Positions 10,621 through 32,669 of a stretch of 64,000 bases of DNA are shown one piece after another. The DNA lies in assembly GCA_019326865.1 (NCBI GenBank), contig GCA_019326865.1_4101.1. The stretch is one strand, 5' to 3'. A model generated the notes under the pieces. The model searched no databases and had not been told where the DNA came from. It worked only from the letters and a program-made list of their open reading frames with translations. The stretch is from a phage. Numbering within the stretch: the stretch's first letter is position 1; every line of letters starts with the position of its first letter. Both the position numbers and the translations under genes were made by a program.

Positions 10621-10671
10621 GTTTTATATCGAGAGGGGAAATGGTTTCCCCTCAAGTCCAGGAGATACACA

Positions 10672-10955: not shown

Positions 10956-11002
10956 GTTTTGCATAGGGGGAGATATCCTCCCCCACTAAAAGGAGTAATA
11001 AA

Positions 11003-11227
11003 ATGGCTAACTTTGATGAACTGATGCGGGAAGTAGCTAACCTGGCAGAAGAGAAGAAATCATTCGATTCTATCTATAACACCTCTTACCGTGATTCAGT
11101 ACTGGCATGTAACCAGGATCAAAAAGATGAACTAATCGCCACCTATTATGAAGCATGGAAGTACTACCGACAATGGGAGAAAGAAGAAAGTGAGTCTACC
11201 ATTGACGGCCTCAATAATCTAATCTAA
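11003..11227 (+). CDS. hypothetical protein (74 aa)
   Basis: ORF track; SD AAAGGAG. Confidence 0.6.
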   Translation: MANFDELMREVANLAEEKKSFDSIYNTSYRDSVLACNQDQKDELIATYYEAWKYYRQWEKEESESTIDGLNNLI

Positions 11228-11245
11228 AGTTTTATTTCAGTACTA

Positions 11246-11274
11246 TTGACATAGATTGATAGTACTGATATGAT
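11246..11274 (+). promoter_or_regulatory. sigma70-like promoter
   Basis: TTGACA-17nt-TATGAT; partial copy of the 790 cassette. Confidence 0.45.
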
Positions 11275-11302
11275 AACTTTACTATCTACAAGGGGAAACA
11301 TC

Positions 11303-11560
11303 ATGGAACAATTCACACAATATCGGGTAAATCCTCAAGCTATGGCATACGTAGAAGACCATAAAACGTTACCAGTACAAACACCAATTAAAGGCCATAT
11401 CTATCGTGCAATGTCATGGAATCCGGCCCAGTATGGCTATAACACCGTAGCCGTGGGCATGTACTGCGGCAATGGTGAATGGTTTGATCCTAACAATCCG
11501 ATTGCACTTGATAGTACTGAAAAAATGAAATGGGCCGACTACATCGAAGATATTTCATAA
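11303..11560 (+). CDS. hypothetical protein (85 aa)
   Basis: start moved from track 11270 (ATG inside -10 region) to ATG after SD AAGGGGAAA. Confidence 0.55.
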   Translation: MEQFTQYRVNPQAMAYVEDHKTLPVQTPIKGHIYRAMSWNPAQYGYNTVAVGMYCGNGEWFDPNNPIALDSTEKMKWADYIEDIS

Positions 11561-11567
11561 AAATTAT

Positions 11568-11595
11568 TTGACAGTACTAACCAGTAATGTATAAT
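11568..11595 (+). promoter_or_regulatory. sigma70-like promoter with 5' leader hairpin
   Basis: TTGACA-16nt-TATAAT; GCGGGGGAATAGTTCTCCCGC hairpin. Confidence 0.55.
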
Positions 11596-11650
11596 GTTTT
11601 ACATAGAGCGGGGGAATAGTTCTCCCGCCAATAGTTTGGAGTAAAACATT

Positions 11651-11851
11651 ATGTCTATCGCTATCGCCCTGGTCGAAGTACTGAAAGAAGCTAAAGCCAA
11701 CCTTATCGATGTACAGATTAAGGAATTGCAAAATGGCTTAATCGGCTGTACTTGTACCGCTGGTGGCCCGTCAGACTATCGGGAATTCGAATCACTTGAA
11801 TCGATGGTCCGTTATCTTACAATCATCGTAGAAGATTGGAGAATCATCTAA
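11651..11851 (+). CDS. hypothetical protein (66 aa)
   Basis: ORF track; SD TTTGGAG. Confidence 0.55.
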   Translation: MSIAIALVEVLKEAKANLIDVQIKELQNGLIGCTCTAGGPSDYREFESLESMVRYLTIIVEDWRII

Positions 11852-11865
11852 CAAAAAAAAAGAAT

Positions 11866-12005
11866 AAAAAGGGATTGACTCCGGTCAGTCCCTTTGCTAT
11901 TATATACGCATAGACAAAAACTAGCCCACAGGGTGCATAGGTGTATCTTAAATATATAGTTAATAACGGTGAGTAACTATCTGCTGGTGGGGTGAAAACT
12001 ATTAA
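11866..12005. repeat. intergenic element R copy 4 (diverged)
   Basis: same hairpin and TTGACT(11875)-17-TATTAT; central part diverged, keeps CTAGCCCACAGGGTGC. Confidence 0.7.
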
Positions 12006-12014
12006 TAAAAAGTA

Positions 12015-12043
12015 TTGACAAAGTATATCAGTACTGCAATAAT
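12015..12043 (+). promoter_or_regulatory. sigma70-like promoter
   Basis: TTGACA-17nt-AATAAT. Confidence 0.45.
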
Positions 12044-12097
12044 GTATCTCGTAGGGCGGCAATGGTGCGACGGTCCACAAAGTTAGGAGATTCACAA

Positions 12098-12430
12098 ATG
12101 AGTACTTCAATCGCTATCGTTAAAGCTTTCATCCGTACCAACGTTTCATCTGTATTCATTGACGGACTGGATCGGGAAGTAGAATACTCAATCATTATCG
12201 CACAAACTGCAAACGGTGCTCGGTACATCCTTAATAATAGTGAAGCAAATCACTACTACTTCACTAAAGCCACTGGCTTTAAACGCATCGATGCTGATGT
12301 AGTATACGCTAAGATGAATAAGCTGGTAGACAAGATTAACGCGAAAGGTACTATCGATTTACAGTACTGGACCGAAACCGATCCAGAATATGGATCTCAC
12401 CGCTACCTGAATCCAGGTATTAAAATGTAA
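12098..12430 (+). CDS. hypothetical protein (110 aa)
   Basis: start moved from track 12062 to ATG after SD AGGAGA. Confidence 0.6.
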   Translation: MSTSIAIVKAFIRTNVSSVFIDGLDREVEYSIIIAQTANGARYILNNSEANHYYFTKATGFKRIDADVVYAKMNKLVDKINAKGTIDLQYWTETDPEYGSHRYLNPGIKM

Positions 12431-12437
12431 AAAGTAC

Positions 12438-12465
12438 TTGCATAGTACTTAGATTTAAGTATAAT
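12438..12465 (+). promoter_or_regulatory. sigma70-like promoter with 5' leader hairpin
   Basis: TTGCAT-16nt-TATAAT; GAGGGGGAAATGGTTCTCCCTCC hairpin. Confidence 0.55.
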
Positions 12466-12519
12466 GTTTTTCATAGAGAGGGGGAAATGGTTCTCCCTCC
12501 TAAATTAAGGAGTTTTATC

Positions 12520-12921
12520 ATGACCTTCTCAATCACTTCCTTCGCTGACGTTTTAGTACTGGCTCGGACTTTCGGCAAAGCTGGCCTTGAGCACGCTGTA
12601 AGTAATGGTTATATGCACCCGGAATATTGCCGCATTATCGGTAGCTGTAAACGTTGGGCCGTGTCCCGTAATATTGAGATTGAAAACTTCAATGATGGTA
12701 ACAACGAATATACAGTTGATGCAGTATTCGAATCCGTTGATCTCGGCGGTATCTATAACACTAACCTGAATGATGTGCGTATTGTTCGCACGGGGTTCGG
12801 TGCTTATGATGTATCTATCCGTGAAGCGATGGACAAGGGATACATTAGCAAGGATCAGTTAGCTTACATTATGCAGCAGACTAAAGAGCGTAATGAAGCA
12901 CGCACTATCTTAGGTCTGTAA
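12520..12921 (+). CDS. hypothetical protein (133 aa)
   Basis: start moved from track 12487 (ATG in hairpin loop) to ATG after SD AAGGAG. Confidence 0.6.
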   Translation: MTFSITSFADVLVLARTFGKAGLEHAVSNGYMHPEYCRIIGSCKRWAVSRNIEIENFNDGNNEYTVDAVFESVDLGGIYNTNLNDVRIVRTGFGAYDVSIREAMDKGYISKDQLAYIMQQTKERNEARTILGL

Positions 12922-12989
12922 GCATTACACATCACTAAACATCATAGGCCGCTCTCTAGCGGCCTTAACTATATCAGGAGTACATACAC

Positions 12990-13199
12990 ATGATCTATAC
13001 AGTATACAGTGTTCTAGGCACTATTGCAGGTGTACACGATAATGTCGATGATACTATGATTACAGTACTGCAACAGGTTCCACTAAAGCCTAAGACAGTT
13101 AAGAAGATGACCGCACGACTAACCAGGGCGACGGCTGGCGTGGAAGTATGGCAGGACTACGGGGATACACAGGTAATCGTAAGCGTAACGAGGGATTAA
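12990..13199 (+). CDS. hypothetical protein (69 aa)
   Basis: ORF track; SD CAGGAG; preceded by hairpin AGGCCGCT-CTCT-AGCGGCCT. Confidence 0.55.
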   Translation: MIYTVYSVLGTIAGVHDNVDDTMITVLQQVPLKPKTVKKMTARLTRATAGVEVWQDYGDTQVIVSVTRD

Positions 13200-13418
13200 T
13201 ACGTAAAATGATTTAGTACTGATTCAGAAAAAAGTCAAGGCGTTTTTAAAATTATGCGTTAAAAAAATGCATAGGTAATCCCTTGACTTTTTTGAAATAA
13301 AAGGGATTGGACTATGGCAAAATGCGTAGGGGGGCTAAAGTGCGGGTAACTTAGCGGCTTCGATAAAGGGGTATTACGAATAAAATGTTATTGACTTTTT
13401 ATATAAATCGTATAAAAT

Positions 13419-13646
13419 ATGATTGATAATAATTTTAAGGGAGTCCCTGTGCGTATTTTAACTCAAGCAGAACACCACGAAAGACTTATCAATAACATGG
13501 CTATGATAATGTATAAGTCCCATGACCGTGGTATTGCCTATAAGCGTGAATTAGTACTGGAACTATTCATTGGAACTAACTTTCAGGAAAGGTATGTCAA
13601 CGATTGGATTTGGTATTTAATTGAAGATATAACGAGTAAACTATGA
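13419..13646 (+). CDS. family A paralog (LGTNYQ motif), hypothetical
   Basis: famA motif IGTNFQERYV; start may be GTG 13446 after SD AGGGAG. Confidence 0.6.
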   Translation: MIDNNFKGVPVRILTQAEHHERLINNMAMIMYKSHDRGIAYKRELVLELFIGTNFQERYVNDWIWYLIEDITSKL

Positions 13647-13837
13647 TCATTTTAAATAAAGAAGAATATCAAGAACTGTTACGTAAAAACTTTGTAAAGA
13701 TTTATAATACAGACACACACGTAGAACGAATGGAGTTATACCTTTTGATTACATTGGGAACTAACTATCAGGAAAGATGGGTGATTCAATATATGGATAC
13801 ATTGAAAAATAAAATATTGTCCACGAGGAAACAATGA
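13643..13837 (+). CDS. family A paralog, hypothetical
   Basis: famA LGTNYQERWV; ATGA-coupled. Confidence 0.6.
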   Translation: MIILNKEEYQELLRKNFVKIYNTDTHVERMELYLLITLGTNYQERWVIQYMDTLKNKILSTRKQ

Positions 13838-14043
13838 AAACTATAACACGAACCCAATCATTCGGACTTATCTTGAAATACATGGACTTAATGGTGGATA
13901 TCAGCAAAGACCTGCCTAAAACTGCAATTGAAGTTGCAAGAGCAGAGATCCGCATGTTGGCTGTACTGAACACAAACCATCAGGAAGAGTATGTTGACGA
14001 TTGGATTCGATTTTTAATAGAAGATATTAAGAGTAAACTATGA
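13834..14043 (+). CDS. family A paralog, hypothetical
   Basis: famA LNTNHQEEYV; ATGA-coupled. Confidence 0.6.
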   Translation: MKTITRTQSFGLILKYMDLMVDISKDLPKTAIEVARAEIRMLAVLNTNHQEEYVDDWIRFLIEDIKSKL

Positions 14044-14252
14044 TTATATTAACACCTGAAGAATATAAGAAACGTTTTAATTCTGTCCAGACTGAAATAT
14101 TACTTATATACCTTTCAAATGCAGATCTTAACTTATCAAGGGTAATGGAGAAGGATTTACTTATGGGTGCATTTTTGGATACAGACTTTCAGGAGTATTA
14201 TGTAGGGGAATACTTTATTGCACTTCAGAACCACATTAAGAGTAAACTATGA
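14040..14252 (+). CDS. family A paralog, hypothetical
   Basis: famA LDTDFQEYYV; ATGA-coupled. Confidence 0.6.
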   Translation: MIILTPEEYKKRFNSVQTEILLIYLSNADLNLSRVMEKDLLMGAFLDTDFQEYYVGEYFIALQNHIKSKL

Positions 14253-14464
14253 TTATTCTAGAAAAATCATATCAATATACTGAACGCATCGCTGCCAGAC
14301 AACTTGAAATCCTCATAATATACGAAGAGACTTCTGATTTAAACTTAGCCGAGGTATTGGAAAATGAAATACTTTTGGGTGCATTCTTGGGAACAGACTA
14401 TCAGGAGTATTATGAGGAAAAGTATTTGTCATCTCTTGAGAAATACGTCAGGAGCAAACTATGA
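14249..14464 (+). CDS. family A paralog, hypothetical
   Basis: famA LGTDYQEYYE; ATGA-coupled. Confidence 0.6.
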   Translation: MIILEKSYQYTERIAARQLEILIIYEETSDLNLAEVLENEILLGAFLGTDYQEYYEEKYLSSLEKYVRSKL

Positions 14465-14688
14465 AACATTTAAGTAATATAGAGAAGAATAAAATTATCA
14501 TTGCTGTAATAAACAAATATTTTACACTTCCACAAAAAGAATGTTTATCTATAAGGGAACACAGGATAAACACCACCGAGATTCGCATGTTGGCTGTACT
14601 GGGGACTAACTTCCAAGAAGGCTATGTTCATGAGCACATCGTTGCACTCACTAATTACATAATGGACAAATGCAATGAACATCATTAA
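14461..14688 (+). CDS. family A paralog, hypothetical
   Basis: famA LGTNFQEGYV. Confidence 0.6.
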   Translation: MKHLSNIEKNKIIIAVINKYFTLPQKECLSIREHRINTTEIRMLAVLGTNFQEGYVHEHIVALTNYIMDKCNEHH

Positions 14689-14899
14689 TAACTTTGAATA
14701 CGAGGCCCGTGTTAAGAGTGCCAGAAAAAAAGAGAACACCATTTACTTCACTATGATGTACTTACAATGGACTGAAATTGAAGAAAAGGTTGCTGAAGTA
14801 TGGATGTTGGAATTCATGGGGACGCAGTATCAGAATAGGTTTGCGGGTGAGTATATCAATGTTCTTATGAAACAAATAGAAAGGAAGGAAAAGAACTAA
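14675..14899 (+). CDS. family A paralog, hypothetical
   Basis: famA MGTQYQNRFA. Confidence 0.55.
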   Translation: MNIINNFEYEARVKSARKKENTIYFTMMYLQWTEIEEKVAEVWMLEFMGTQYQNRFAGEYINVLMKQIERKEKN

Positions 14900-14988
14900 T
14901 GGAGGGATGCTGTACTTTATTGGAACTTTTATATATTCATGAACACATAGTTGCCCTCACAAATCTAATAAAGGATAAATGTAAATGA
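14899..14988 (+). pseudogene. truncated family A remnant (29 codons)
   Basis: encodes MEGCCTLLELLYIHEHIVALTNLIKDKCK, matching only the C-terminal end of 14461..14688. Confidence 0.45.
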
Positions 14989-15242
14989 AACACTTGACTG
15001 ATGATGAACATGAAACTATAATTCGTAAACTAACCCCCATCACAAGGATAGTCTACGGTGATCCCAGCCTCACATGGAACCAAATGCGAGCTAAAGTTAA
15101 TGAGCTATGGTTGCTGTACTTTATGGGGACTCAATATCAAGATAAGTTTTGCACAGAATATATCGAACAATTAACGAATGTTATACAGGATAAACTAAAT
15201 GAACGAATTGTGGAAAAATATGAAAACTTTATCAAGCATTGA
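14985..15242 (+). CDS. family A paralog, hypothetical
   Basis: famA MGTQYQDKFC; N-terminus MKHLTDDEH shared with 17780. Confidence 0.6.
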   Translation: MKHLTDDEHETIIRKLTPITRIVYGDPSLTWNQMRAKVNELWLLYFMGTQYQDKFCTEYIEQLTNVIQDKLNERIVEKYENFIKH

Positions 15243-15471
15243 GTATCAGACTGCCCTCTTCTCTCTTCTAAACACCCTCCGCACGAACAATAAACTTTAT
15301 AATTCACGTGAAGCTGATATTGTCAACGCTGATGTATATCTTAATAAATTTATAGGGACTAACTATCAAGAACTGTTTGTTTTACGATATATCTCTGCAC
15401 TAAGAAACGAAATATCAGATAAAACCCGCCAAGCCAGAAGAGAATGGAAGAGACAATGCAACAAAGACTAA
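15199..15471 (+). CDS. family A paralog, hypothetical
   Basis: famA IGTNYQELFV; start may be ATG 15220. Confidence 0.55.
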   Translation: MNELWKNMKTLSSIEYQTALFSLLNTLRTNNKLYNSREADIVNADVYLNKFIGTNYQELFVLRYISALRNEISDKTRQARREWKRQCNKD

Positions 15472-15707
15472 ATCACAAAATGTATTGTAAACTATTACAG
15501 AATCTAGGACAAAAACACTATGATACAGTATCTGAAATATTACCCTATGATATCATGCGTTTAATTCATAGTGAGGCAGAGATGCTTGTACTGATGACCG
15601 GTACTGATAAAACAGCAATCACCAGATCGATAGAGCAATATATTGATGCACACTGTCAATGTATTAGAACTGAGATATGGAGGCGAGTAAATGAAAGTAC
15701 TGAATGA
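15444..15707 (+). CDS. family A-like divergent paralog, hypothetical
   Basis: position in array; degenerate motif MTGTDKTAI. Confidence 0.5.
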   Translation: MEETMQQRLNHKMYCKLLQNLGQKHYDTVSEILPYDIMRLIHSEAEMLVLMTGTDKTAITRSIEQYIDAHCQCIRTEIWRRVNESTE

Positions 15708-15906
15708 GTATCAGTATCATTGGAGGTTACAAACTATAAGAGGGAAAGTTGTTAGTATTTCTTTAGACAAGTCTATTGCACAAGAGGACAAATGTGTTAT
15801 AATAGCTGAAATGAAGTTGGGTGTATTTGTAGGAACAAACTATCAAAACATCTACACTGACGTATTATTAAGTGCCTTACGCAACAAGGTGTTATCCAGA
15901 GAATGA
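15691..15906 (+). CDS. family A paralog, hypothetical
   Basis: famA VGTNYQNIYT. Confidence 0.6.
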   Translation: MKVLNEYQYHWRLQTIRGKVVSISLDKSIAQEDKCVIIAEMKLGVFVGTNYQNIYTDVLLSALRNKVLSRE

Positions 15907-16121
15907 GAAAATTAATAGGTTACGAATATGTTAAGCTTCTGAAAACCTGTAGTATTAGCAGGGTAAAGATTCAATCTGATAAGAGTATTCCTGTTGAACT
16001 AAAGTACGCAATGATGGCTGAACTTTATGTAGGTGCACTATTGGGGACAAACTATCAACAAATGTATGTAGACCTATGGGTTGACGCTCTACTGAAAGAG
16101 GTCCAAAGTAAATGCAAATGA
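15903..16121 (+). CDS. family A paralog, hypothetical
   Basis: famA LGTNYQQMYV; ATGA-coupled. Confidence 0.6.
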   Translation: MRKLIGYEYVKLLKTCSISRVKIQSDKSIPVELKYAMMAELYVGALLGTNYQQMYVDLWVDALLKEVQSKCK

Positions 16122-16333
16122 TTCATTTATCTTACTATGAATATCAAAAACGTTTAAATGCATCAAGGGATATAAGGATTAAAATCTACAATAACAAAAG
16201 ATTGAAATCTGAAGCCAAAAAAATCAAAATGATAGAAGCTGAATTATGCAACTTCCTTGGGACGAACTATCAGGATGATAAGGTAACAAACTATCTTAGA
16301 GAACTAATGATTAGTATCAAGAGTAAATGTTAG
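16112..16333 (+). CDS. family A paralog, hypothetical
   Basis: famA LGTNYQDDKV. Confidence 0.6.
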   Translation: MQMIHLSYYEYQKRLNASRDIRIKIYNNKRLKSEAKKIKMIEAELCNFLGTNYQDDKVTNYLRELMISIKSKC

Positions 16334-16337
16334 GCAG

Positions 16338-16595
16338 ATGTACATGAAAATGATTAAATTATCTCAAGCAAAATATAAAGAACGCCTGGAAAAAATTACA
16401 CCTAGACTTAATGAAATCCATCACGGAGAAGTCATTAAACACGGAAATAAGATGATTATGAAACTTGAGTTAAAGGTGGGTGCATTCATAGGAACAAACT
16501 ATCAGGAGTATTATGTAGATGAATACATAATCGCACTTAAGAGATACATTGGAAGAAAACTATATCTACAAACTAAAGAATTGTATTGCAAATAA
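16338..16595 (+). CDS. family A paralog, hypothetical
   Basis: famA IGTNYQEYYV. Confidence 0.6.
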   Translation: MYMKMIKLSQAKYKERLEKITPRLNEIHHGEVIKHGNKMIMKLELKVGAFIGTNYQEYYVDEYIIALKRYIGRKLYLQTKELYCK

Positions 16596-16876
16596 ATGCA
16601 AGGATAATGAATATGAAAATGATCAATTTAAGTAAAGATGAATATACCGAGCGTATGACAAAAATTACGCACAAACGTAATACAATCTATCACAACCCAG
16701 AAATTCAACACAGTAAGAAAATGATTATGATGCGTGAGTTAAAGATGGGTGTATTCTTGGGAACAAACTATCAAGATACAGAAGTAAATCGCTTAATCGC
16801 GGAGTTACTACTGGAAATCAGAGGTAAGCTGTACTTTCATCAAATGACCCAACCACTGAGGTGTACTAAGAAATGA
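16586..16876 (+). CDS. family A paralog, hypothetical
   Basis: famA LGTNYQDTEV. Confidence 0.6.
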   Translation: MQINARIMNMKMINLSKDEYTERMTKITHKRNTIYHNPEIQHSKKMIMMRELKMGVFLGTNYQDTEVNRLIAELLLEIRGKLYFHQMTQPLRCTKK

Positions 16877-17088
16877 TCAACATCACATTGCAAGAAAGAT
16901 TCATCCGAATCAACTATGCAATTACCAAATTAGATGCTACTATAGGATTCCAAAGTCTACCGTTCCAAACAAGAATGATATTAGAGTGCGAAGCTAAATT
17001 GGGTGTACTGTTAGGAACGCAACACCAACAACGATATGTGGAAATCTGGATTGATCTTTTAACCCAAAATGTACATGAGAAAATGTAA
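16873..17088 (+). CDS. family A paralog, hypothetical
   Basis: famA LGTQHQQRYV; ATGA-coupled. Confidence 0.6.
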   Translation: MINITLQERFIRINYAITKLDATIGFQSLPFQTRMILECEAKLGVLLGTQHQQRYVEIWIDLLTQNVHEKM

Positions 17089-17325
17089 ATGAAAAATGAA
17101 ATGATATACTTAACGAATGAAGAGTTTCAAGAGAAGATGTTAAAAATCTATGATAATACTCTTGAGTACGTTCCAAATCAATCAATATATGAAGTGTCTG
17201 CGAATGTATTATTTCAGAAGCTACCATACGTTCTTGGAACGGATAAACAAGAATTTATGGTCAAAAATATGATTGAACATCTTATGATGAGTATTAAGGA
17301 AAAAGTGAATGCAAAAGAAAAATGA
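17089..17325 (+). CDS. family A paralog, hypothetical
   Basis: famA LGTDKQEFMV. Confidence 0.6.
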   Translation: MKNEMIYLTNEEFQEKMLKIYDNTLEYVPNQSIYEVSANVLFQKLPYVLGTDKQEFMVKNMIEHLMMSIKEKVNAKEK

Positions 17326-17572
17326 AATGATATACTTAACACCTGCTGAGTTAACAGAAAGACTAGTTAAATCCAGAAGATATACAAATCAACTTCCTCA
17401 CAACCCAAATCAAACCCCAGCGGAAAGGAGTGCAGAAGTTTTATTCCAATCACTACCATACCTTCTTGGAACTAATAGACAAGAGTATCATATCGAACGT
17501 ATAATTAAATATCTTAAAATTACTATTAAGGAAAAAGTAAATGCTCAAGAATTTAAAAATCCTAACAGTTAA
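17309..17572 (+). CDS. family A paralog, hypothetical
   Basis: famA LGTNRQEYHI; N-terminus near-identical to 17089. Confidence 0.6.
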   Translation: MQKKNEMIYLTPAELTERLVKSRRYTNQLPHNPNQTPAERSAEVLFQSLPYLLGTNRQEYHIERIIKYLKITIKEKVNAQEFKNPNS

Positions 17573-17783
17573 TGAATATCATAAGATTGTAATGAAAACT
17601 AATAGTGCAATTTCTAAAAAATCAAACCCAAAGTACATACTGGAACACACATTTGAAGAACGTCAATTAGCTTTAGTTGAAGCAAAACTTCTTGCACTCT
17701 TAGGAACAAACTATCAGGAAGAATACATCAGAAAACTAATATACCTTTTAACTAAACACATCAGGAAAAGAAAAAAAGCATGA
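17541..17783 (+). CDS. family A paralog, hypothetical
   Basis: famA LGTNYQEEYI. Confidence 0.6.
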   Translation: MLKNLKILTVNEYHKIVMKTNSAISKKSNPKYILEHTFEERQLALVEAKLLALLGTNYQEEYIRKLIYLLTKHIRKRKKA

Positions 17784-18010
17784 AGCACTTGACAGATGAT
17801 GAACATGGGCTTATAGTAATGGATGTAATCAACATCGAATACAAAAAGTTGATACGCTATCGTTGTTATGAAGATAAGCAACTAGTTCTAGCAGAACAGA
17901 AGTTGTTTCGACTCTTAAACACAAACTTCCAAGCACAATACGAAGAATCGTATATGTACCTTTTGGCGAGGAAAGCAAAAAGAGATTATGAAAATTTTAA
18001 GCAAAGGTGA
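17780..18010 (+). CDS. family A paralog, hypothetical
   Basis: famA LNTNFQAQYE; ATGA-coupled. Confidence 0.6.
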   Translation: MKHLTDDEHGLIVMDVINIEYKKLIRYRCYEDKQLVLAEQKLFRLLNTNFQAQYEESYMYLLARKAKRDYENFKQR

Positions 18011-18209
18011 TTCAGTAATATTACTTATAGAGAGTTCAAATAAATTCTTAAACATAACACTGTCTGATATAGATGAAGATGATAAAGAAGTACTGAGAGC
18101 AGATTTAAGAGTACTGTTACATCTCGGAACAAACCTACAAGAAGAATATGTAGAGTACTACATTGATGAACTTAAAGAATCAGTACTGAGAAGATGCAAA
18201 TGCGAATGA
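17988..18209 (+). CDS. family A paralog, hypothetical
   Basis: famA LGTNLQEEYV. Confidence 0.6.
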   Translation: MKILSKGDSVILLIESSNKFLNITLSDIDEDDKEVLRADLRVLLHLGTNLQEEYVEYYIDELKESVLRRCKCE

Positions 18210-18421
18210 TTACCGACGAAGAATACCTAACAATTATAAATGGATTGTTTTTGAAGTTGTTTGTTATTAACACATCAGATATACCAGATATGGATAAAAT
18301 TATTAAGAGAAATGAAATCTATGTTCTAGCTACCCTGGGAACTAACTATCAAGAATGCAATATTAATGATTATATTAATACACTTAAAGGAGCGATTGAA
18401 CTAAAATGCCAAAACCACTAG
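18194..18421 (+). CDS. family A paralog, hypothetical
   Basis: famA LGTNYQECNI. Confidence 0.6.
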   Translation: MQMRMITDEEYLTIINGLFLKLFVINTSDIPDMDKIIKRNEIYVLATLGTNYQECNINDYINTLKGAIELKCQNH

Positions 18422-18621
18422 GAACAGCAGAATACATTGAACTCATGGGATTACACTTCTCATCCTTTCAGAAACTTATGCGAGAATCAAAGAATGATTT
18501 AGAATATACCATCAGAGGTTCAGATTTAAGAATGCTTCTCACCCTAGACACAGATTCCCAAGAGAGATTTGTCAATGAGCATATTAGAGCACTTTTAATG
18601 GAAATTAAAAGTAAACTATGA
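18406..18621 (+). CDS. family A paralog, hypothetical
   Basis: famA LDTDSQERFV. Confidence 0.6.
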   Translation: MPKPLGTAEYIELMGLHFSSFQKLMRESKNDLEYTIRGSDLRMLLTLDTDSQERFVNEHIRALLMEIKSKL

Positions 18622-18833
18622 AGGTAATATCAAACCAAGAGTACTTGGCACTATTCAGGAAGAATAATCACAAATATATGGCACTTGATTCAAGAACTGA
18701 TATAGGGGAACTTGAAAAAAATCTTTTGCGTTCAGAGATGATAGTACTGACACTCTTAGGAACACAACATCAAGAGAGAACTGTTGATTCATATATTGAG
18801 ATTCTTAAGAAGCTTATACAGGAAAAACTATGA
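18618..18833 (+). CDS. family A paralog, hypothetical
   Basis: famA LGTQHQERTV; ATGA-coupled. Confidence 0.6.
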   Translation: MKVISNQEYLALFRKNNHKYMALDSRTDIGELEKNLLRSEMIVLTLLGTQHQERTVDSYIEILKKLIQEKL

Positions 18834-19060
18834 GAATCATAACACAAACAGACATATTTAAGTTAGCAAGGGAACATACATCTGAAATTGATGCTATAGT
18901 ATCAAAAAGTTACAATGACCCTTATACACAAGATGTGCACTACAATGAATTATGGGTGTATATACTTTTAGGTACAAATTATCAAGAGCAAGCAGTACAG
19001 AAGTATTTGGCAGCTTTAAGTACTGCTACTGCTAATAGTATAGGTATTAAAAAATGCTAG
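18830..19060 (+). CDS. family A paralog, hypothetical
   Basis: famA LGTNYQEQAV; ATGA-coupled. Confidence 0.6.
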   Translation: MRIITQTDIFKLAREHTSEIDAIVSKSYNDPYTQDVHYNELWVYILLGTNYQEQAVQKYLAALSTATANSIGIKKC

Positions 19061-19290
19061 TACTGACAGAACTAGAAATGTATCATAGATTTAATAAGTA
19101 CTATCATTTACTTAAGCCTATACAGAGGATTAAATGTCCATTTGAAGAGAAACAGGTATTAATTTATGAGCATAAGTTATTTGTATCATTAGGTACGAAT
19201 GAACAAGAGTATTATTTGAAGTTGTACTTAATTACTTTAATTGAATTGATTAATCACAAAACACAGAAAGCTAAGAAATCTAAAAAATGA
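19054..19290 (+). CDS. family A paralog, hypothetical
   Basis: famA LGTNEQEYYL. Confidence 0.6.
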   Translation: MLVLTELEMYHRFNKYYHLLKPIQRIKCPFEEKQVLIYEHKLFVSLGTNEQEYYLKLYLITLIELINHKTQKAKKSKK

Positions 19291-19625
19291 AAACTAATAT
19301 TCAACTCAAGGTATACATATCTTATGAATCTATATACATCAAATGCAGTCTATGTAAAGATGTAATGGATTATAAAGGTAAGCCATTCACAATTACTTAC
19401 AGTCTAACAGGAGGCTTTTATATATCTTTTGTTGATTACGAAAATAAAATATACAAGCACATTGATATTAAAGATTTAAGTACCTTGTCAGATGAGGAAT
19501 ACTTTCAAGAATCATTAGTATGGGATTTAGAGTTTCCTATGACATTAGTACACAAAATGATAGTACTAATGAAAGAAACTAAACCTGAGCCGAGTGGTTA
19601 TGAAGAATTCATTATTGAGTATTAA
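19287..19625 (+). CDS. family B paralog (acidic-FQxS motif), hypothetical
   Basis: famB SDEEYFQESLVWD; sits inside family A array. Confidence 0.6.
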   Translation: MKTNIQLKVYISYESIYIKCSLCKDVMDYKGKPFTITYSLTGGFYISFVDYENKIYKHIDIKDLSTLSDEEYFQESLVWDLEFPMTLVHKMIVLMKETKPEPSGYEEFIIEY

Positions 19626-19637
19626 GAGTACTGATAT

Positions 19638-19853
19638 ATGAAAAGATTATCATACAAAGATTACAGTAAACTTATCAGTACTTTACAACCAGAAATTAGA
19701 AGAATTAATTATCTTCCTATATCTAACGAAGAACGTGTAGTACTGAAAAATGAGTTAATATTAAAACGCACAGTAGGTACTAACTATCAAGATAATAGTG
19801 TTTGCGATTTAATTAGAGGGTTAATGATCACAATAAAGGCCAAGTGCTATTGA
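19638..19853 (+). CDS. family A paralog, hypothetical
   Basis: famA VGTNYQDNSV. Confidence 0.6.
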   Translation: MKRLSYKDYSKLISTLQPEIRRINYLPISNEERVVLKNELILKRTVGTNYQDNSVCDLIRGLMITIKAKCY

Positions 19854-19859
19854 CAGTAC

Positions 19860-19888
19860 TTGACGGAGCTTTTCATTACTGATATAGT
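19860..19888 (+). promoter_or_regulatory. sigma70-like promoter
   Basis: TTGACG-17nt-TATAGT upstream of 19918. Confidence 0.45.
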
Positions 19889-19917
19889 ATACTAACGTTA
19901 ATCATAGGGTAGAAATT

Positions 19918-20163
19918 ATGTTAAAATTTTTAAATTTCCTTATCGTCTTGTGTATTGTTCTTGGGATTGCACCGTTTGTACTGGTGTATATGGATTCAGA
20001 TGAAATGCAAAAGATGAATTGCACAAAGACGGGACAGAGTAGAGAAGAGACGATTCTTATGCCTGTTACTGTTATTGTTAATAATATGCCCATTACAAAC
20101 ATGGTCCCTACCCTAACGACAACGTACCAGTACTCTTGTACAGACGGGGAGAGGTGGAGATGA
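19918..20163 (+). CDS. hypothetical membrane protein (81 aa)
   Basis: ORF track; N-terminal hydrophobic helix FLNFLIVLCIVLGIAPFVLVY. Confidence 0.55.
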   Translation: MLKFLNFLIVLCIVLGIAPFVLVYMDSDEMQKMNCTKTGQSREETILMPVTVIVNNMPITNMVPTLTTTYQYSCTDGERWR

Positions 20164-20480
20164 AATTTAATATAGCAAAAACATCGAATGTATGTATATT
20201 TGGTTATGCAGAAGAGTTAGGTGATATTGACATTCTTTTGTACAAAAAGGATGGTGTTATGCATTTCAAGTACCAGGATGAAGAGGCAGACAATTATCTT
20301 TTGCCTAATTTAGTACAAATGCAGGAAGAGGAATTATTCCAGTACAGCTTAGTATATGACATTGATATTTGCACGATGCCAGTACTAATTAATATTCAAA
20401 AAGTGATGCTCGATGTGTTTGATAGGCTAATACAAGGCACACAAGGAAGAACCATATATGTCAATGTACAAGACAATTAA
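20136..20480 (+). CDS. family B paralog, hypothetical
   Basis: famB QEEELFQYSLVYD. Confidence 0.6.
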   Translation: MYRRGEVEMKFNIAKTSNVCIFGYAEELGDIDILLYKKDGVMHFKYQDEEADNYLLPNLVQMQEEELFQYSLVYDIDICTMPVLINIQKVMLDVFDRLIQGTQGRTIYVNVQDN

Positions 20481-20673
20481 TCAAGAATGGAAGAATCAAA
20501 AGTACAGAGAATTCAATAGGAATTTTACAAAAGACGAATTGAATATAAAAACAACAGAATTTGATATGTTTATTTTTCTCGGAACACGTTCTCAGGAGCA
20601 ATTTGTTCATTATTATATAAATTCGTTGCGAGCGGAGATAGTATGCAAAACAAAGGGTATTATAAAAAGGTAA
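20458..20673 (+). CDS. family A paralog, hypothetical
   Basis: famA LGTRSQEQFV. Confidence 0.55.
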   Translation: MSMYKTINQEWKNQKYREFNRNFTKDELNIKTTEFDMFIFLGTRSQEQFVHYYINSLRAEIVCKTKGIIKR

Positions 20674-20909
20674 ACCAACATTTGTACGCTACAAAGTACA
20701 GGGATTTTTGTTTAAAGGGTGGTGATGAAGATTTTTCTTTGCGATTATCAGAATTTAATCTGTTATTTTATCTTGGTACATCGGAACAAGAAGAAATGGC
20801 ACAGAAATTTCTCAATCACCTTGTACAAAAAATTAATATGCAAATTTTGATGCTTAAGTTACAGGATGAGATAAATGAATATGAACCCAACAATAGTACA
20901 GGATCTTAA
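20643..20909 (+). CDS. family A paralog, hypothetical
   Basis: famA LGTSEQEEMA. Confidence 0.55.
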   Translation: MQNKGYYKKVNQHLYATKYRDFCLKGGDEDFSLRLSEFNLLFYLGTSEQEEMAQKFLNHLVQKINMQILMLKLQDEINEYEPNNSTGS

Positions 20910-21270
20910 ACAAGTAATATTCCTTTTGAATACAAGAAGTGAATTGTATACAGAGTTTAAAGAGATTAATGCATTTTATCAGAATTTTGTAATTCAAGAG
21001 TTCAGTGATTTAATTACAGATGCATTATTTGAATTATCGGAAAAATACAAAGGAACAGAGTTCAGTGTTAAAAATGTATTACGTTCTTTATCAACGCGTA
21101 TAATAAAATTAGATCATTTCAAATTTGAAAATAAAGATTTATTCAGTCACAATCCAAGTACAGCTTTATATTTTATTCCTGATTCAGACAAAAATCATCC
21201 TATTCATTACGGATGGATTTTGTCGTACATAGTACAAGGAAAGGAGTATCCTATTAAATGGAACGATTAG
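20875..21270 (+). CDS. hypothetical protein (131 aa)
   Basis: ORF track; no family motif. Confidence 0.5.
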   Translation: MNMNPTIVQDLKQVIFLLNTRSELYTEFKEINAFYQNFVIQEFSDLITDALFELSEKYKGTEFSVKNVLRSLSTRIIKLDHFKFENKDLFSHNPSTALYFIPDSDKNHPIHYGWILSYIVQGKEYPIKWND

Positions 21271-21418
21271 GGCGATTAGATTATTACACAATTAATACAA
21301 ATTATTTGTTGCGTAATATAAAATCCGATTACAAAATATGGATAAAGAACAGAGATAGCATGTGTTATGAATTTTATTTAGATTATGCTATCAAACGATT
21401 TTTAAGAGAAGAACATTA

Positions 21419-21622
21419 GTGCAAAATAGTAATACGATAACATTAAATGCATTACAGGATTCATTATTAGATAGTATTAAGATGTATTACAATATACATT
21501 TGAGGGGTGGCATTGATGATTATAATTATTATTTGAGTTTAATTGTAATTGAGCACCTTTCAGTACAGGACAGGATTTTACATCCTACAAATCCTAGGTA
21601 TCCATCGATAGGTAAATTATGA
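21419..21622 (+). CDS. hypothetical protein (67 aa)
   Basis: ORF track; start is GTG per track. Confidence 0.4.
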   Translation: MQNSNTITLNALQDSLLDSIKMYYNIHLRGGIDDYNYYLSLIVIEHLSVQDRILHPTNPRYPSIGKL

Positions 21623-22176
21623 ATGAGATAGAGTTATTAGCACACAAGATAAGTACAATAATGCTTATCCTCAATAACAACCATCCTATATCGCAGATAG
21701 ATGGAATCCTGAGTCAGAGGACAGGTGGTAGTTTATATTTGTCCCTAAACGCAAATATCGCAAGGAAATACATTGACATTGGTGATGTTGATGCTGAAAT
21801 CGAATGTGATACAACTGGAATTGTTGATGTAGGTGCATTAATCAGTTCAAATCCTGTATCAGTATCCCCGTTGACCAAAGGTGTTAGTACAGGATTCGAA
21901 GGATATTTGTGGTATAATGCTAATGATAATTATTTTATATATCAGCATTCTAATACAAATTATGATGAAGATAAATTTGAGTTCATTGACCCTTATGATG
22001 AAGCTGGAGTATTTCAACAATCATTAATCACAAAACCACATCAAATGATGTATCTAATGTTATTCAGTACAATGAATTTGAATCCATTAATTAATGGTTT
22101 AAAGTTTTATATTCAATTGAATTTGGTTCATGTAGTTTATGATTTATTAATGCAAGGATATAGTTATGAAGTATAA
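21619..22176 (+). CDS. family B paralog, hypothetical
   Basis: famB DEAGVFQQSLITKP; ATGA-coupled. Confidence 0.6.
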   Translation: MNEIELLAHKISTIMLILNNNHPISQIDGILSQRTGGSLYLSLNANIARKYIDIGDVDAEIECDTTGIVDVGALISSNPVSVSPLTKGVSTGFEGYLWYNANDNYFIYQHSNTNYDEDKFEFIDPYDEAGVFQQSLITKPHQMMYLMLFSTMNLNPLINGLKFYIQLNLVHVVYDLLMQGYSYEV

Positions 22177-31771: not shown

Positions 31772-32304
31772 TGAAAGTTAACATTAATGACTTTGATGCA
31801 TTACAAGATTTATCAAAAAAGATTCGCACCATCGTACCAGTACTTAAAAAATGCAGTACTGGTTTAATCGATCCTAGTTCTGTTGTCAATGAGAAGTACA
31901 ATTTTCATCGTGTATTACAGGGGACAGGTGCATTTCAGAAGTGTGAGGTACGTGAGAAACATGTAATTGATACATCGTTGTTTTCTATTGGTGCACCTGT
32001 GTCAAACAATACTATTTTCCTGGATGCATCTGGAAATATTCAACAATTAACATTTAAGAAAAGGAAAAAGAATAATAACATTGGTGTGTACGCGATGAAG
32101 TGGGGACAGCCAGCGTTGATGCGTGACATTCACATTCCTAAGTACAATTTCAATGCATTTGAAGAACAGTGTTTTCAACTTTCTTGTACTGACCCTGACT
32201 ATGCTATCATTCAATTCTATATGGAATTGCAGATTGCATTTAATAGTAATTTGTATATTAACTTATTGGCAATGAACATAGATGAAGTATTCAAAAACAT
32301 TTAA
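31768..32304 (+). CDS. family B paralog, hypothetical
   Basis: famB AFEEQCFQLSCTDPD; ATGA-coupled. Confidence 0.55.
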   Translation: MMKVNINDFDALQDLSKKIRTIVPVLKKCSTGLIDPSSVVNEKYNFHRVLQGTGAFQKCEVREKHVIDTSLFSIGAPVSNNTIFLDASGNIQQLTFKKRKKNNNIGVYAMKWGQPALMRDIHIPKYNFNAFEEQCFQLSCTDPDYAIIQFYMELQIAFNSNLYINLLAMNIDEVFKNI

Positions 32305-32500
32305 TCGAATTGAATACATGAGAACTGTGAGAGCGGTGTGGAATATATGGTACACTACTAAACCAAAAATGGATTACCATGATTTTAAGCTCTTGTTCTT
32401 TGTTGGCTCTAACAAACAGGATGTTGCAATGAAGGGTTATATTCAGCACTTACAGGAACTAATCCAGAAGAGAATATATGAAAATAATAGACCAAAATGA
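32282..32500 (+). CDS. family A paralog, hypothetical
   Basis: famA-like VGSNKQDVAM; stray copy inside family B array. Confidence 0.5.
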   Translation: MKYSKTFNRIEYMRTVRAVWNIWYTTKPKMDYHDFKLLFFVGSNKQDVAMKGYIQHLQELIQKRIYENNRPK

Positions 32501-32669
32501 CATTGCTAAACTATTCAATATATATTCTACTAGAATGATGCAAACAGATTCATATAGTACTAAATTCAAAGAGTTGAAAGTACTGATGTACTTGGGAACA
32601 CAATATCAGGAACAAGTTATTTTAGAATATATTAATTCATTAAAGAAGGATATCCGTGATGTACGATGA
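32478..32669 (+). CDS. family A paralog, hypothetical
   Basis: famA LGTQYQEQVI. Confidence 0.55.
   Translation: MKIIDQNDIAKLFNIYSTRMMQTDSYSTKFKELKVLMYLGTQYQEQVILEYINSLKKDIRDVR

What the first reader, a model, noticed from the sequence alone, without database searches (positions are those of the whole stretch)
13419..19853. About 30 tandem, translationally coupled 70-aa paralogs (family A, LGTNYQExYV motif)
A 6.4-kb run of about 27 consecutive small ORFs, plus strays at 20458-20909 and 32282-32669, each ending with a conserved L-G-T-[ND]-[YF]-Q-E-x-[YF]-V then I..L...I..K helix. Most are linked by ATGA overlaps, so they are probably co-translated from one long transcript. Several share near-identical N-termini (MKHLTDDEH at 14985 and 17780; KNEMIYLT at 17089 and 17309), indicating recent duplication. 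No known family recognised.
Basis: seen in the sequence. Interest (0 to 1): 0.88.

Follow-up and report, generated by a model that had tools for sequence, protein, structure and literature searches.

The report
Thirty-gene mini-protein family in jumbo phage
A giant E. coli virus carries about 30 back-to-back, diverged copies of one tiny gene of unknown function right behind its terminal repeat; the array is real and conserved, has been mentioned once in the literature, and most likely supplies early proteins that act on the host cell.

Summary
The window comes from an Asteriusvirus jumbo coliphage (PBECO4/121Q/G17 group; closest record UE-S1). A family profile finds 31 intact members plus one decayed copy, all on the + strand: 26 in a row at 13449-19290, one at 19638-19853, two at 20458-20909 and two at 32282-32669.

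The copies are old. Median paralog identity is 25% and the maximum is 54%. Each has orthologs in other phages under purifying selection (dN/dS about 0.33).

The array starts 98 bp inside the unique genome, just past the inner edge of the roughly 21-kb direct terminal repeat. A sigma70-like promoter conserved in five phages precedes it. Genes are packed at a median spacing of -4 nt, with 12 ATGA junctions.

AlphaFold gives a confident four-helix domain (pLDDT 95) with no relative in PDB, Pfam or NCBIfam. The only family match is PHROG 4148, function unknown. No member appears in the phAPEC6 virion proteome.

The core is conserved; surfaces and charge vary widely (pI 4.4-10). Copy number varies from about 19 to 29. 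Relatives occur in RaK2-like Klebsiella phages.

Best reading: an early, polycistronic, birth-and-death family of host-interaction proteins. The function itself is inferred, not shown. A 2017 paper on 121Q probably noted this array in one sentence.

The parts
13351..13352 (.). Position equivalent to the inner boundary of the left direct terminal repeat (DTR)
   Evidence: The fEgEco12 DTR (20,993 bp, confirmed by restriction digests, PMC13070987) ends at GGGTAACCT|TAGCGAC. I verified 0 mismatches between its two copies. The boundary sequence is conserved in 5 of 5 phages and maps to window 13351|13352.
13391..13418 (+). Sigma70-like promoter in front of the array (TTGACT, 16 nt, TAAAAT)
   Evidence: Found in the consensus scan. 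The -35 element is invariant and the -10 element is conserved in window, fEgEco12, G17, 121Q and the divergent Turkey5.
13449..13646 (+). Member 1 (65 aa; GTG start, GGAG ribosome-binding site at 13440-13443)
   Evidence: HMM E 1.8e-19. Start revised. Annotated as 65 aa in G17, 121Q and fEgEco12.
13643..13837 (+). Member 2 (64 aa)
   Evidence: HMM E 1.6e-19; ATGA junction.
13834..14043 (+). Member 3 (69 aa)
   Evidence: HMM E 6.8e-22; ATGA junction.
14040..14252 (+). Member 4 (70 aa)
   Evidence: HMM E 2.7e-23; ATGA junction. Its order is swapped with member 5 in G17.
14249..14464 (+). Member 5 (71 aa)
   Evidence: HMM E 9.9e-19; 49% identical to member 4.
14461..14688 (+). Member 6 (75 aa)
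   Evidence: HMM E 1.9e-25.
14675..14899 (+). Member 7 (74 aa)
   Evidence: HMM E 5e-23.
14900..14984 (+). Decayed copy (pseudogene remnant); the HMM match is on the 14851-14985 reading frame
   Evidence: HMM E 6.4e-4. It has 58-bp and 11-bp deletions relative to G17_00606, including loss of the motif.
14985..15242 (+). Member 8 (85 aa)
   Evidence: HMM E 1.2e-26.
15199..15471 (+). Member 9 (90 aa from the first ATG; a later in-frame ATG is possible)
   Evidence: HMM E 3.2e-20.
15444..15707 (+). Member 10 (87 aa), divergent: GTDKTAITRSIEQY, a 6-residue insertion in the motif
   Evidence: HMM E 5.2e-18; alignment.
15691..15906 (+). Member 11 (71 aa)
   Evidence: HMM E 5.3e-23.
15903..16121 (+). 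Member 12 (72 aa)
   Evidence: HMM E 2.8e-24.
16112..16333 (+). Member 13 (73 aa)
   Evidence: HMM E 4.4e-25.
16338..16595 (+). Member 14 (85 aa)
   Evidence: HMM E 1.9e-26; best PHROG 4148 match, E 3e-26.
16607..16876 (+). Member 15 (89 aa from the ATG; the ORF list starts it at TTG 16586)
   Evidence: HMM E 2.8e-26; 47% identical to member 14.
16873..17088 (+). Member 16 (71 aa)
   Evidence: HMM E 2e-21.
17089..17325 (+). Member 17 (78 aa)
   Evidence: HMM E 7.5e-20. With member 18 it forms the closest paralog pair, 54% identical.
17309..17572 (+). Member 18 (87 aa)
   Evidence: HMM E 9.6e-22.
17541..17783 (+). Member 19 (80 aa; most basic, net charge +9.8)
   Evidence: HMM E 1.2e-21; charge.
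17780..18010 (+). Member 20 (76 aa)
   Evidence: HMM E 6.8e-17. It occurs fused in frame to the ortholog of member 19 in metagenome protein P0001.
17988..18209 (+). Member 21 (73 aa)
   Evidence: HMM E 5.4e-22.
18194..18421 (+). Member 22 (75 aa)
   Evidence: HMM E 2.9e-24.
18406..18621 (+). Member 23 (71 aa)
   Evidence: HMM E 4.7e-20; 100% identical to its G17 ortholog and 70% to its Turkey5 ortholog.
18618..18833 (+). Member 24 (71 aa); the copy whose structure was modelled
   Evidence: HMM E 1.1e-22. AlphaFold2 pLDDT 95.1, pTM 0.78, four helices.
18830..19060 (+). Member 25 (76 aa)
   Evidence: HMM E 1.5e-22.
19054..19290 (+). Member 26 (78 aa)
   Evidence: HMM E 1.4e-21.
19287..19625 (+). 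Interrupting gene (112 aa). NOT a family member; it belongs to a second paralog family
   Evidence: No HMM hit. Matches phrog_13866 and phrog_15629. Clusters with 20160-20480, 22166, 27301, 28026 and 33818.
19638..19853 (+). Member 27 (71 aa)
   Evidence: HMM E 1.1e-21.
20458..20673 (+). Stray member 28 (71 aa)
   Evidence: HMM E 2.7e-21.
20643..20909 (+). Stray member 29 (88 aa)
   Evidence: HMM E 5.1e-19.
32282..32500 (+). Stray member 30 (72 aa), weak match
   Evidence: HMM E 1.5e-7. The equivalent gene in fEgEco12 also matches, E 2.7e-7.
32478..32669 (+). Stray member 31 (63 aa)
   Evidence: HMM E 1.9e-18; PHROG 4148 E 1.5e-16.

Best explanation
The array is a lineage-specific multigene family of small, soluble, non-virion proteins. 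Each is a single four-helix domain of about 65-90 aa.

Shown:
- The family arose by ancient tandem duplication and evolves by birth and death.
- It forms a tightly packed, overlap-coupled block that starts 98 bp inside the unique genome, just past the left direct terminal repeat.
- It sits behind one conserved sigma70-type promoter.
- The hydrophobic core and a polar loop motif (G-T-N-Y-Q-E, plus N-terminal E-Y and one Glu in helix 3) are conserved. The rest of the surface and the net charge differ almost completely between copies.
- Each copy is kept by purifying selection in related phages.

Inferred:
- Host RNA polymerase transcribes the block as one early polycistronic mRNA, and translational coupling produces all copies together.
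- The copies act as a set of specificity variants on one scaffold. Each binds a different host factor or defence component (host takeover or counter-defence), so the repertoire contributes to host range.
For: Family and count: 31 intact members plus 1 remnant.

Tandem-duplication origin: adjacent copies are more alike than distant ones (0.297 against about 0.25; none of 5000 permutations reached the observed value).

Birth and death:
- One pseudogene remnant.
- Main-array copy number is 27 here, 29 in G17, 23 in 121Q, 28 in fEgEco12 and about 19-20 in Turkey5.
- One local order swap relative to G17.

Real, individually maintained genes:
- Ortholog dN/dS is 0.33, 0.30 and 0.35, against 0.21 for neighbouring genes.
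- By site class it is 0.19 at paralog-conserved columns and 0.46 at paralog-variable columns, below 1 in every class.

Position and expression signals:
- DTR boundary at 13351|13352, conserved promoter at 13391-13418, GGAG ribosome-binding site and start at 13449.
- Median gap is -4 nt, against 80 nt in the DTR part. The DTR part has 17 near-consensus sigma70 promoters.
- No + strand terminator-like site.

Fold: pLDDT 95, pTM 0.78. Conserved positions in helix 4 follow a heptad-like a/d spacing, while other columns reach 3.0-3.8 bits of entropy. pI ranges from 4.4 to 10.0.

Non-structural: none of the 62 phAPEC6 virion proteins maps to the array.

Fast-evolving accessory region: against Turkey5, DTR genes are 94% identical, family members 43% and downstream genes 32%.

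Family-level retention: members also occur in multiple copies in RaK2/K64-1-like Klebsiella jumbo phages and in uncultivated contigs.
Against: - No expression data exist for any Asteriusvirus in the searched literature. Early timing rests only on promoter type and position.
- There is no sign of positive selection at this crude level (omega 0.46 at variable sites), which an active arms race might predict.
- A conserved polar motif shared by all copies could equally mean one common partner rather than many.
- The array promoter differs from the standard promoter cassettes of the DTR, so its timing may differ.
- Which genome end enters the cell first is unknown.
Confidence: 0.5

Rival explanations
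1. The paralogs are subunits that co-assemble into a hetero-oligomeric intracellular structure or scaffold. Translational coupling would serve to fix their stoichiometry. They would not each bind a separate host target.
For: - Overlap-coupled genes of uniform size.
- A polar motif conserved in all copies could be a shared interface.
- A natural in-frame fusion of two adjacent members exists (P0001).
Against: - Copy number ranges from about 19 to 29 between related phages, and one copy is decaying. That fits poorly with a fixed-stoichiometry complex.
- Net charge varies from -7.5 to +9.8.
- No member is in the virion.
- No multimer prediction could be run.
Confidence: 0.15
2. The family encodes small nucleic-acid-binding regulators, such as transcription or translation modulators of phage or host genes.
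For: - About 40% of the copies are strongly basic, with pI 9-10.
- They are small all-helical proteins in an early region that also encodes a DksA/TraR-type zinc finger.
Against: - About half of the copies (16 of 30) are acidic or near neutral, pI 4.4-6.7.
- No Pfam DNA-binding family matches.
Confidence: 0.12
3. The array is mostly dispensable 'filler' produced by tandem duplication. It is tolerated because the large capsid packages DNA by the headful (the genome-expansion ratchet of Hua et al. 2017), with little or no function per copy.
For: - Hua et al. interpret such arrays in this way.
- Copy number varies and a pseudogene is present.
- dN/dS is higher than in neighbouring genes.
Against: - Purifying selection acts on every site class.
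- One-to-one orthologs are retained across the genus despite 25% paralog identity.
- The promoter and the start/stop coupling are conserved.
- The family is retained in distant RaK2-like Klebsiella phages.
Confidence: 0.15
4. The array is an assembly artefact or non-coding repeat DNA whose ORFs are spurious.
For: None beyond the generic risk that repeats pose in short-read assemblies.
Against: - The array is collinear in 36 independent phage records.
- Copies are at most 54% identical, and no DNA-level tandem repeat is detected.
- dN/dS is well below 1.
- The predicted fold is confident.
Confidence: 0.01

Closest known systems
PHROG 4148, and the tandem array noted in phage 121Q by Hua et al. 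2017 (mBio, PMC5646251)
   Same: This is the same family. Window members match phrog_4148 at E 1e-12 to 1e-26. 121Q carries 23 main-array copies plus strays at the same locus. [quoted passage not shown]
   Different: PHROG gives no function. The paper devotes one sentence to the array and gives no coordinates, so I cannot prove it means this one. It is the only candidate I saw near that size: the RCC1-like array in fEgEco12 has about 15 copies. The copies are also not 'very similar', with median identity 25%.
Multigene families of large eukaryotic DNA viruses, such as African swine fever virus MGF100/110/360/505 and poxvirus terminal host-range families (recalled from my own knowledge, not checked here)
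   Same: Tandem paralogs beside the terminal repeats. Birth-and-death evolution with copy-number differences between isolates. Non-structural proteins. A variable accessory region next to a conserved part of the genome.
   Different: No sequence or fold relationship. This is a bacterial virus. The proteins are much smaller (about 70 aa). They are arranged as an overlap-coupled operon. A role in host range or immune evasion is unproven here.
Terminal-repeat host-takeover modules: Bacillus phage SPO1 gp37-60 and the phage T5 pre-early region (recalled from my own knowledge)
   Same: Clusters of small early genes at or near a long direct terminal repeat, read by host RNA polymerase. The DTR part of this window (1-13351) has exactly that look, with many consensus sigma70 promoter cassettes.
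   Different: The array itself lies just outside the repeat. It has one promoter rather than one per gene, and it consists of paralogs of a single family rather than unrelated genes.
Strings of non-identical immunity genes next to polymorphic toxins, such as the type VII secretion immunity genes EsaG/TsaI in Staphylococcus aureus (PMC9484751, abstract seen)
   Same: Tandem arrays of diverged small paralogs on one scaffold, thought to cover variants of a polymorphic target. Recombination between neighbouring copies drives their evolution.
   Different: Those are bacterial and lie next to a cognate toxin gene. No toxin domain was found in the neighbouring genes I scanned. There is no homology.
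Hyperplastic early regions of T4-type phages, with promoter-early stem-loop cassettes (recalled from my own knowledge)
   Same: Densely packed small early ORFs with ATGA junctions. High turnover between related phages. Repeated promoter and hairpin cassettes nearby.
   Different: T4 hyperplastic regions hold mostly unrelated ORFs. They are not a 30-copy expansion of one family.

Membership tests
PHROG 4148 (phage protein family, unknown function) | Significant full-length match to the family profile | tested here: met
   Eight of 8 tested members match over nearly the whole 74-position profile, E 9.7e-12 to 3.2e-26. The Klebsiella-phage relatives also match.
Any Pfam-A or NCBIfam family | Score above the curated cut-off | tested here: not met
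   The best Pfam hits score 13-17 bits against cut-offs of 25-29. NCBIfam gives only 3 scattered single-member hits at E of about 6e-4 or weaker.
Helix-turn-helix or other known DNA-binding folds | Structural match of the confident model to a DNA-binding domain | tested here: not met
Virion or internal head proteins | Detected in purified particles | tested here: not met
   The phAPEC6 virion proteome (62 proteins, Table 1 of PMC7247149) lists nothing between gp347 and gp549. The family member gp481c falls in that interval, so no array product is in the table.
Viral tandem multigene family (birth-and-death type) | Tandem paralogs of one family | tested here: met
   31 members; adjacent copies are more similar than distant ones.
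Viral tandem multigene family (birth-and-death type) | Copy-number variation and pseudogenes among related genomes | tested here: met
   About 19 to 29 main-array copies in five phages, and one decayed copy in this window.
Viral tandem multigene family (birth-and-death type) | Location beside the terminal repeat, in a variable accessory region | tested here: met
   The array starts 98 bp after the DTR boundary. Identity to Turkey5 drops from 94% to 43% across that boundary.
Viral tandem multigene family (birth-and-death type) | Role in host range or evasion of host defence | not testable with these tools
   Needs deletion mutants and host panels.
Terminal-repeat host-takeover module (SPO1 / T5 type) | Genes lie inside the terminal repeat | tested here: not met
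   The first member starts at 13449, outside the repeat, which ends at 13351.
Terminal-repeat host-takeover module (SPO1 / T5 type) | Many strong early promoters, roughly one per gene or gene pair | tested here: not met
   The array has one conserved promoter and a median gap of -4 nt. The DTR part has 17 near-consensus promoters and 80-nt gaps. The promoter-like site inside the array at 14994 is not conserved in orthologs.
Translationally coupled operon | Stop and start codons overlap or abut along the block | tested here: met
   Twelve ATGA junctions; 89% of gaps are 5 nt or less; only 14 of 30 starts have a Shine-Dalgarno-like sequence. Actual coupling was not measured.
Immunity-gene strings of polymorphic toxin systems | A cognate toxin gene adjacent to the array | tested here: inconclusive
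   No toxin domain was found in the neighbours scanned with Pfam. Most neighbours have no detectable domain at all.

The most novel reading that the evidence does not exclude
The array is a phage counterpart of the multigene families of large eukaryotic DNA viruses. It would be a birth-and-death library of about 30 surface-diversified mini-proteins, built on a four-helix fold with no known relative and made first from the unique genome. Each copy would neutralise a different host defence or host-factor variant, so that the repertoire sets host range.
Probability: 0.3. Interest if true: 0.75.

Novelty: new member of a known kind. Interest (0 to 1): 0.5.

Why it matters
About 83% of the genes in these 350-kb coliphages have no known function. 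Arrays like this one account for a visible share of the extra DNA.

This array is well suited to experiment. It is compact (6.4 kb) and sharply delimited by the terminal-repeat boundary. It sits behind a single promoter. It is made of about 30 small soluble domains with a confident predicted structure. Natural variants exist with 19 to 29 copies.

If the copies prove to be specificity variants against host defences or host factors, they would give three things: a new mini-protein scaffold for binders, a handle on host range in phages considered for therapy, and a bacterial-virus example of the multigene-family strategy known from African swine fever virus and poxviruses. If they prove dispensable, that would support the idea that jumbo genomes grow by near-neutral tandem duplication.

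Tried and rejected
- Pfam, NCBIfam and PADLOC scans of all or representative members gave nothing above threshold.
- The PDB profile search had best E 0.53.
- The search for related loci could not be run with the alignment, because no stretch is conserved enough.
- tblastn with the divergent member P0169 against the phage collection found no match.
- A weak 'T4 MRH-like' hint for the interrupting 112-aa gene (E 0.024) was not reproduced in its paralogs, so I dropped it.
- Internal promoters: the sigma70-like site at 14994 is not conserved in orthologs. The one at 17789 lies in a gene that is itself 99% conserved, so it is uninformative.
- 'Recent duplication' of the MKHLTDDEH genes is rejected.
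- The array of tiny genes at the right end of fEgEco12 (g596-g613) could have been the same family. hhalign gives 4.6% probability, so it is not.
- The RCC1-like array, as the alternative meaning of Hua's '>30 genes', has only about 15 copies.
- Rfam finds no RNA family anywhere in the window. Tandem Repeats Finder finds no long-period DNA repeat.
- I considered folding the natural two-domain fusion P0001 to probe neighbour packing. All homologs aligned to one half, so the model would have been uninformative, and I abandoned it.

Full report
WHAT THE WINDOW IS. The 6.4-kb region matches 36 phage records, all from Escherichia or Salmonella jumbo myoviruses of the PBECO4/121Q/G17 group (genus Asteriusvirus). 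The closest is UE-S1, at 95.4% identity over 97% of the region. G+C is about 30-39% and almost every gene in the window is on the + strand.

CHECKING THE OBSERVATION. A loose motif pattern hits 29 times, all on the + strand, against 0.46 in shuffles. A profile HMM built from 30 copies (alignment A1) and run on all six-frame ORFs finds 31 intact members and one fragment.
- Twenty-six members are consecutive at 13449-19290.
- Next comes an unrelated 112-aa gene (19287-19625), which belongs to a different six-member paralog family.
- A further member follows at 19638-19853.
- Strays lie at 20458-20673, 20643-20909, 32282-32500 (weak) and 32478-32669.
- The only 'gap' in the run (14900-14984) is a decayed copy carrying 58-bp and 11-bp deletions relative to G17.

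Only one Thr is invariant. A Gln and a Leu are conserved in more than 90% of copies. Median pairwise identity is 25% and the maximum is 54%. At the DNA level the copies are too diverged for Tandem Repeats Finder. The array is collinear in independently sequenced genomes, so an assembly artefact is excluded.

GENE ORGANISATION. Twelve junctions are ATGA overlaps. Most others overlap by 7-44 nt when the first ATG is taken as the start. In the ORF set, 89% of gaps are 5 nt or less and the median is -4. Only 14 of 30 starts have a Shine-Dalgarno-like sequence at a normal distance, so many copies probably depend on coupling to the upstream gene. This is inference. The common C-terminal ...K-S-K-L* is encoded by AAGAGTAAACTATGA. 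That string carries both the Shine-Dalgarno-like AAGAG and the overlapping start of the next gene, so part of the C-terminal 'conservation' may be a DNA-level constraint (read from the sequence).

POSITION IN THE GENOME. Phage fEgEco12 has 20,993-bp direct terminal repeats confirmed by restriction digests (PMC13070987). I verified that the two copies in the record are identical. Synteny places window position 1 at about fEgEco12 position 6,721, and the inner repeat boundary at window 13351|13352.

The sequence around the boundary is conserved in all five phages compared, including the divergent Turkey5. Forty bases further on lies a sigma70-like promoter (TTGACT, 16 nt, TAAAAT; 13391-13418), also conserved in all five. 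A GGAG ribosome-binding site and the true start of member 1 follow: GTG 13449 here, ATG elsewhere.

A second phage gives the same result. The vB_Ec-M-J repeat is 21,525 bp and the array match begins at 21,594.

No + strand terminator-like site lies between 12512 and 23000. The next good promoter match (19860) comes right after the last main-array gene.

CONTRAST WITH THE REPEAT. The part of the window inside the repeat (1-13351) is built differently. It has 39 small genes with a median gap of 80 nt. It has 17 + strand sigma70 matches of 11/12 or better, ten of them perfect. It has more than 25 copies of a standard promoter cassette followed by a 5' hairpin. It encodes a DksA/TraR zinc-finger protein and a GNAT acetyltransferase. 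That resembles the terminal-repeat takeover modules of SPO1 and T5 (recalled from my own knowledge). The array is the first block of unique DNA behind it.

EVOLUTION.
- Adjacent copies are more similar than distant ones (0.297 against about 0.25; none of 5000 permutations reached the observed value). This is the signature of tandem duplication.
- The duplications are old. Each copy has a reciprocal-best ortholog in G17, 121Q and fEgEco12 at a median 80-89% identity.
- Ortholog dN/dS (Nei-Gojobori) is 0.33, 0.30 and 0.35, against 0.21 for neighbouring non-family genes.
- Split by site class over 70 ortholog pairs, dN/dS is 0.19 at paralog-conserved columns, 0.31 at intermediate columns and 0.46 at paralog-variable columns. 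Even the copy-specific surfaces are therefore under purifying selection. This argues that the copies are not redundant. I see no signal of positive selection at this resolution.
- Main-array copy number is 27 here, 29 in G17, 23 in 121Q, 28 in fEgEco12 and about 19-20 in Turkey5. There is one order swap and one pseudogene.
- Against Turkey5, genes inside the repeat are 94% identical (median), family members 43% and downstream genes 32%. The repeat boundary is thus also the edge of a fast-evolving accessory region.

DISTRIBUTION. An exhaustive profile search of 1.84 billion cluster representatives found only 90 clusters. tblastn finds the family only in the 36 Asteriusvirus records. A second profile built from the weakest hits led to other lineages:
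- Klebsiella phage phiKp_21, a RaK2/K64-1-like jumbo phage, with 7 copies in 20 kb. Some carry a C-terminal extension of about 50 aa with no detectable domain.
- Two uncultivated contigs with 12 and 16 copies.

The family therefore predates the genus and is always multi-copy, with its largest known expansion here.

THE PROTEIN. AlphaFold2 on a 66-sequence alignment gives pLDDT 95.1 and pTM 0.78. The model has four helices (residues 6-15, 17-24, 31-45, 52-70), with the N-terminal residue 2 bridged to the invariant Thr in the helix 3-helix 4 loop.
- Foldseek against PDB has best E 3.
- BFVD returns only family members from 121Q, PBECO4, UB and slurp01, at TM up to 0.93.
- Pfam, NCBIfam, PADLOC and the PDB sequence search are negative.

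Conserved positions are mostly hydrophobic and follow heptad-like spacing in helix 4. They also include a polar set: E-Y near the N-terminus, one Glu in helix 3, and G-T-N-x-Q-E. The other columns reach 3.0-3.8 bits of entropy. pI runs from 4.4 to 10.0 and net charge from -7.5 to +9.8. GRAVY is near zero or negative for every copy (-0.90 to +0.03), which argues against membrane segments.

None of the 62 virion proteins of phAPEC6 comes from the array. The family member gp481c is listed.

INTERPRETATION. Established:
- a genuine, selected, non-structural, soluble multigene family with a conserved scaffold and diversified surfaces;
- overlap-coupled packing behind one conserved host-type promoter;
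- a position at the very start of the unique genome, in a rapidly turning-over region.

From this I infer early polycistronic expression and a role in host interaction (takeover or counter-defence), with different copies recognising different targets. I put about 0.5 on that general reading. The specific targets are unknown.

Rivals are a hetero-oligomeric assembly (0.15), nucleic-acid-binding regulators (0.12), largely neutral filler DNA (0.15) and an artefact (0.01). The report sections give the evidence for and against each.

PRIOR KNOWLEDGE. Hua et al. [quoted passage not shown] Wagemans et al. 2020 echo this for phAPEC6. Neither gives coordinates or analysis. This array is the only one I saw in these genomes that approaches 30 copies; the RCC1-like array has about 15. 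The genome papers on UE-S1, Sharanji and fEgEco12 do not discuss it. I found no transcriptome for the genus.

So the array's existence is known and catalogued as PHROG 4148. The following appear not to have been described: its placement at the repeat boundary, the conserved promoter, the fold, the selection pattern, the copy-number dynamics and the wider distribution.

VERDICT. The feature is real and the observation confirmed, with corrections. I classify it as a new, uncharacterised member of a known kind of thing, namely tandem multigene expansions in the accessory early regions of large viruses. Interest is moderate (0.5). It is an experimentally tractable family with a fold that has no known relative, but there is no functional evidence yet and the array has been mentioned in the literature before.

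Noticed in passing
window 1-13351: This stretch corresponds to the inner two thirds of the roughly 21-kb direct terminal repeat. It holds 39 small genes with gaps of about 80 nt. It carries more than 25 copies of a standard promoter cassette (AAAAAGTACTTGCA or TTGACA ... GTATAATGTTTTACAT) followed by a 5' hairpin (GAGGGGAAAnGGTTTCCCC). Seventeen + strand sigma70 matches score 11/12 or better.
   Followed up: partly
window 2834-2893, 6562-6621, 9571-9630, 11855-11914: Four copies of a promoter embedded in a hairpin (AAAGGGATTGACTCCGGTCAGTCCCTTTGCTATTATAT). They are reminiscent of the promoter-early stem-loop cassettes of T4-type phages. The simple scan also scores them as terminator-like.
   Followed up: no
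window 13300-13375: The sequence around the terminal-repeat boundary (GGGATTGGACTATGGCAAAATGCGTAGGGGG...GGGTAAC|TTAGCG) is nearly invariant in five phages, including the divergent Turkey5. It is a candidate terminase recognition or cutting region.
   Followed up: no
window 4552-4809 and 4874-5230: A DksA/TraR C4 zinc-finger protein and a GNAT acetyltransferase, both above Pfam cut-offs, lie inside the terminal-repeat part. Depositors also annotate a 'spackle' protein and a Ser/Thr kinase in the fEgEco12 repeat. Pfam did not confirm the kinase.
   Followed up: partly
window 19287-34180 and 28395-37645: Further paralog families lie downstream. One has six members of 100-242 aa (19287, 20160, 22166, 27301, 28026, 33818). 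Another has eight members of 147-167 aa (28395-31771, 35944, 37163). The whole 19.9-47 kb stretch is packed at a median gap of -4 nt and has no Pfam hits.
   Followed up: partly
window 53673-55082: A three-member family of 91-103-aa paralogs.
   Followed up: no
L002 3836-8439 (fEgEco12 348,835-353,438): Another tandem array of 16-18 tiny genes (about 60 aa, conserved M..EYY...L...CT...Y..L.LI) lies just before the right terminal repeat. It is unrelated to the family studied here (hhalign probability 4.6%).
   Followed up: partly
L006 34399-49501 and L002 1-3733 (fEgEco12 g580-g595): About 15 tandem, minus-strand paralogs of about 370-390 aa (one about 245 aa), annotated 'chromosome condensation regulator' (RCC1-like). 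Several homologs in phAPEC6 are virion proteins.
   Followed up: no
L009 (Klebsiella phage phiKp_21, LC768486), L007, L011: Family members occur in RaK2/K64-1-like Klebsiella jumbo phages (7 in 20 kb, some with a C-terminal extension of about 50 aa) and in two uncultivated contigs (12 and 16 copies). The contigs also carry downstream arrays of 160-200-aa genes like those in the window.
   Followed up: partly
protein P0001 (metagenome contig, 154 aa): A natural in-frame fusion of the orthologs of two adjacent members (window 17541-17783 and 17780-18010), created by loss of the ATGA junction.
   Followed up: no
window 13351 versus Turkey5 (L005): There is a sharp break in divergence at the repeat boundary: 94% median protein identity inside the repeat, 43% and 32% just outside it. 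This suggests either recent exchange of the repeat between lineages or much faster turnover of the adjacent region.
   Followed up: partly
protein hits: Many family proteins are filed under 'Escherichia coli' assemblies on contigs of about 350 kb. That fits reports of lytic jumbo phage genomes turning up in bacterial isolate assemblies (titles seen).
   Followed up: no
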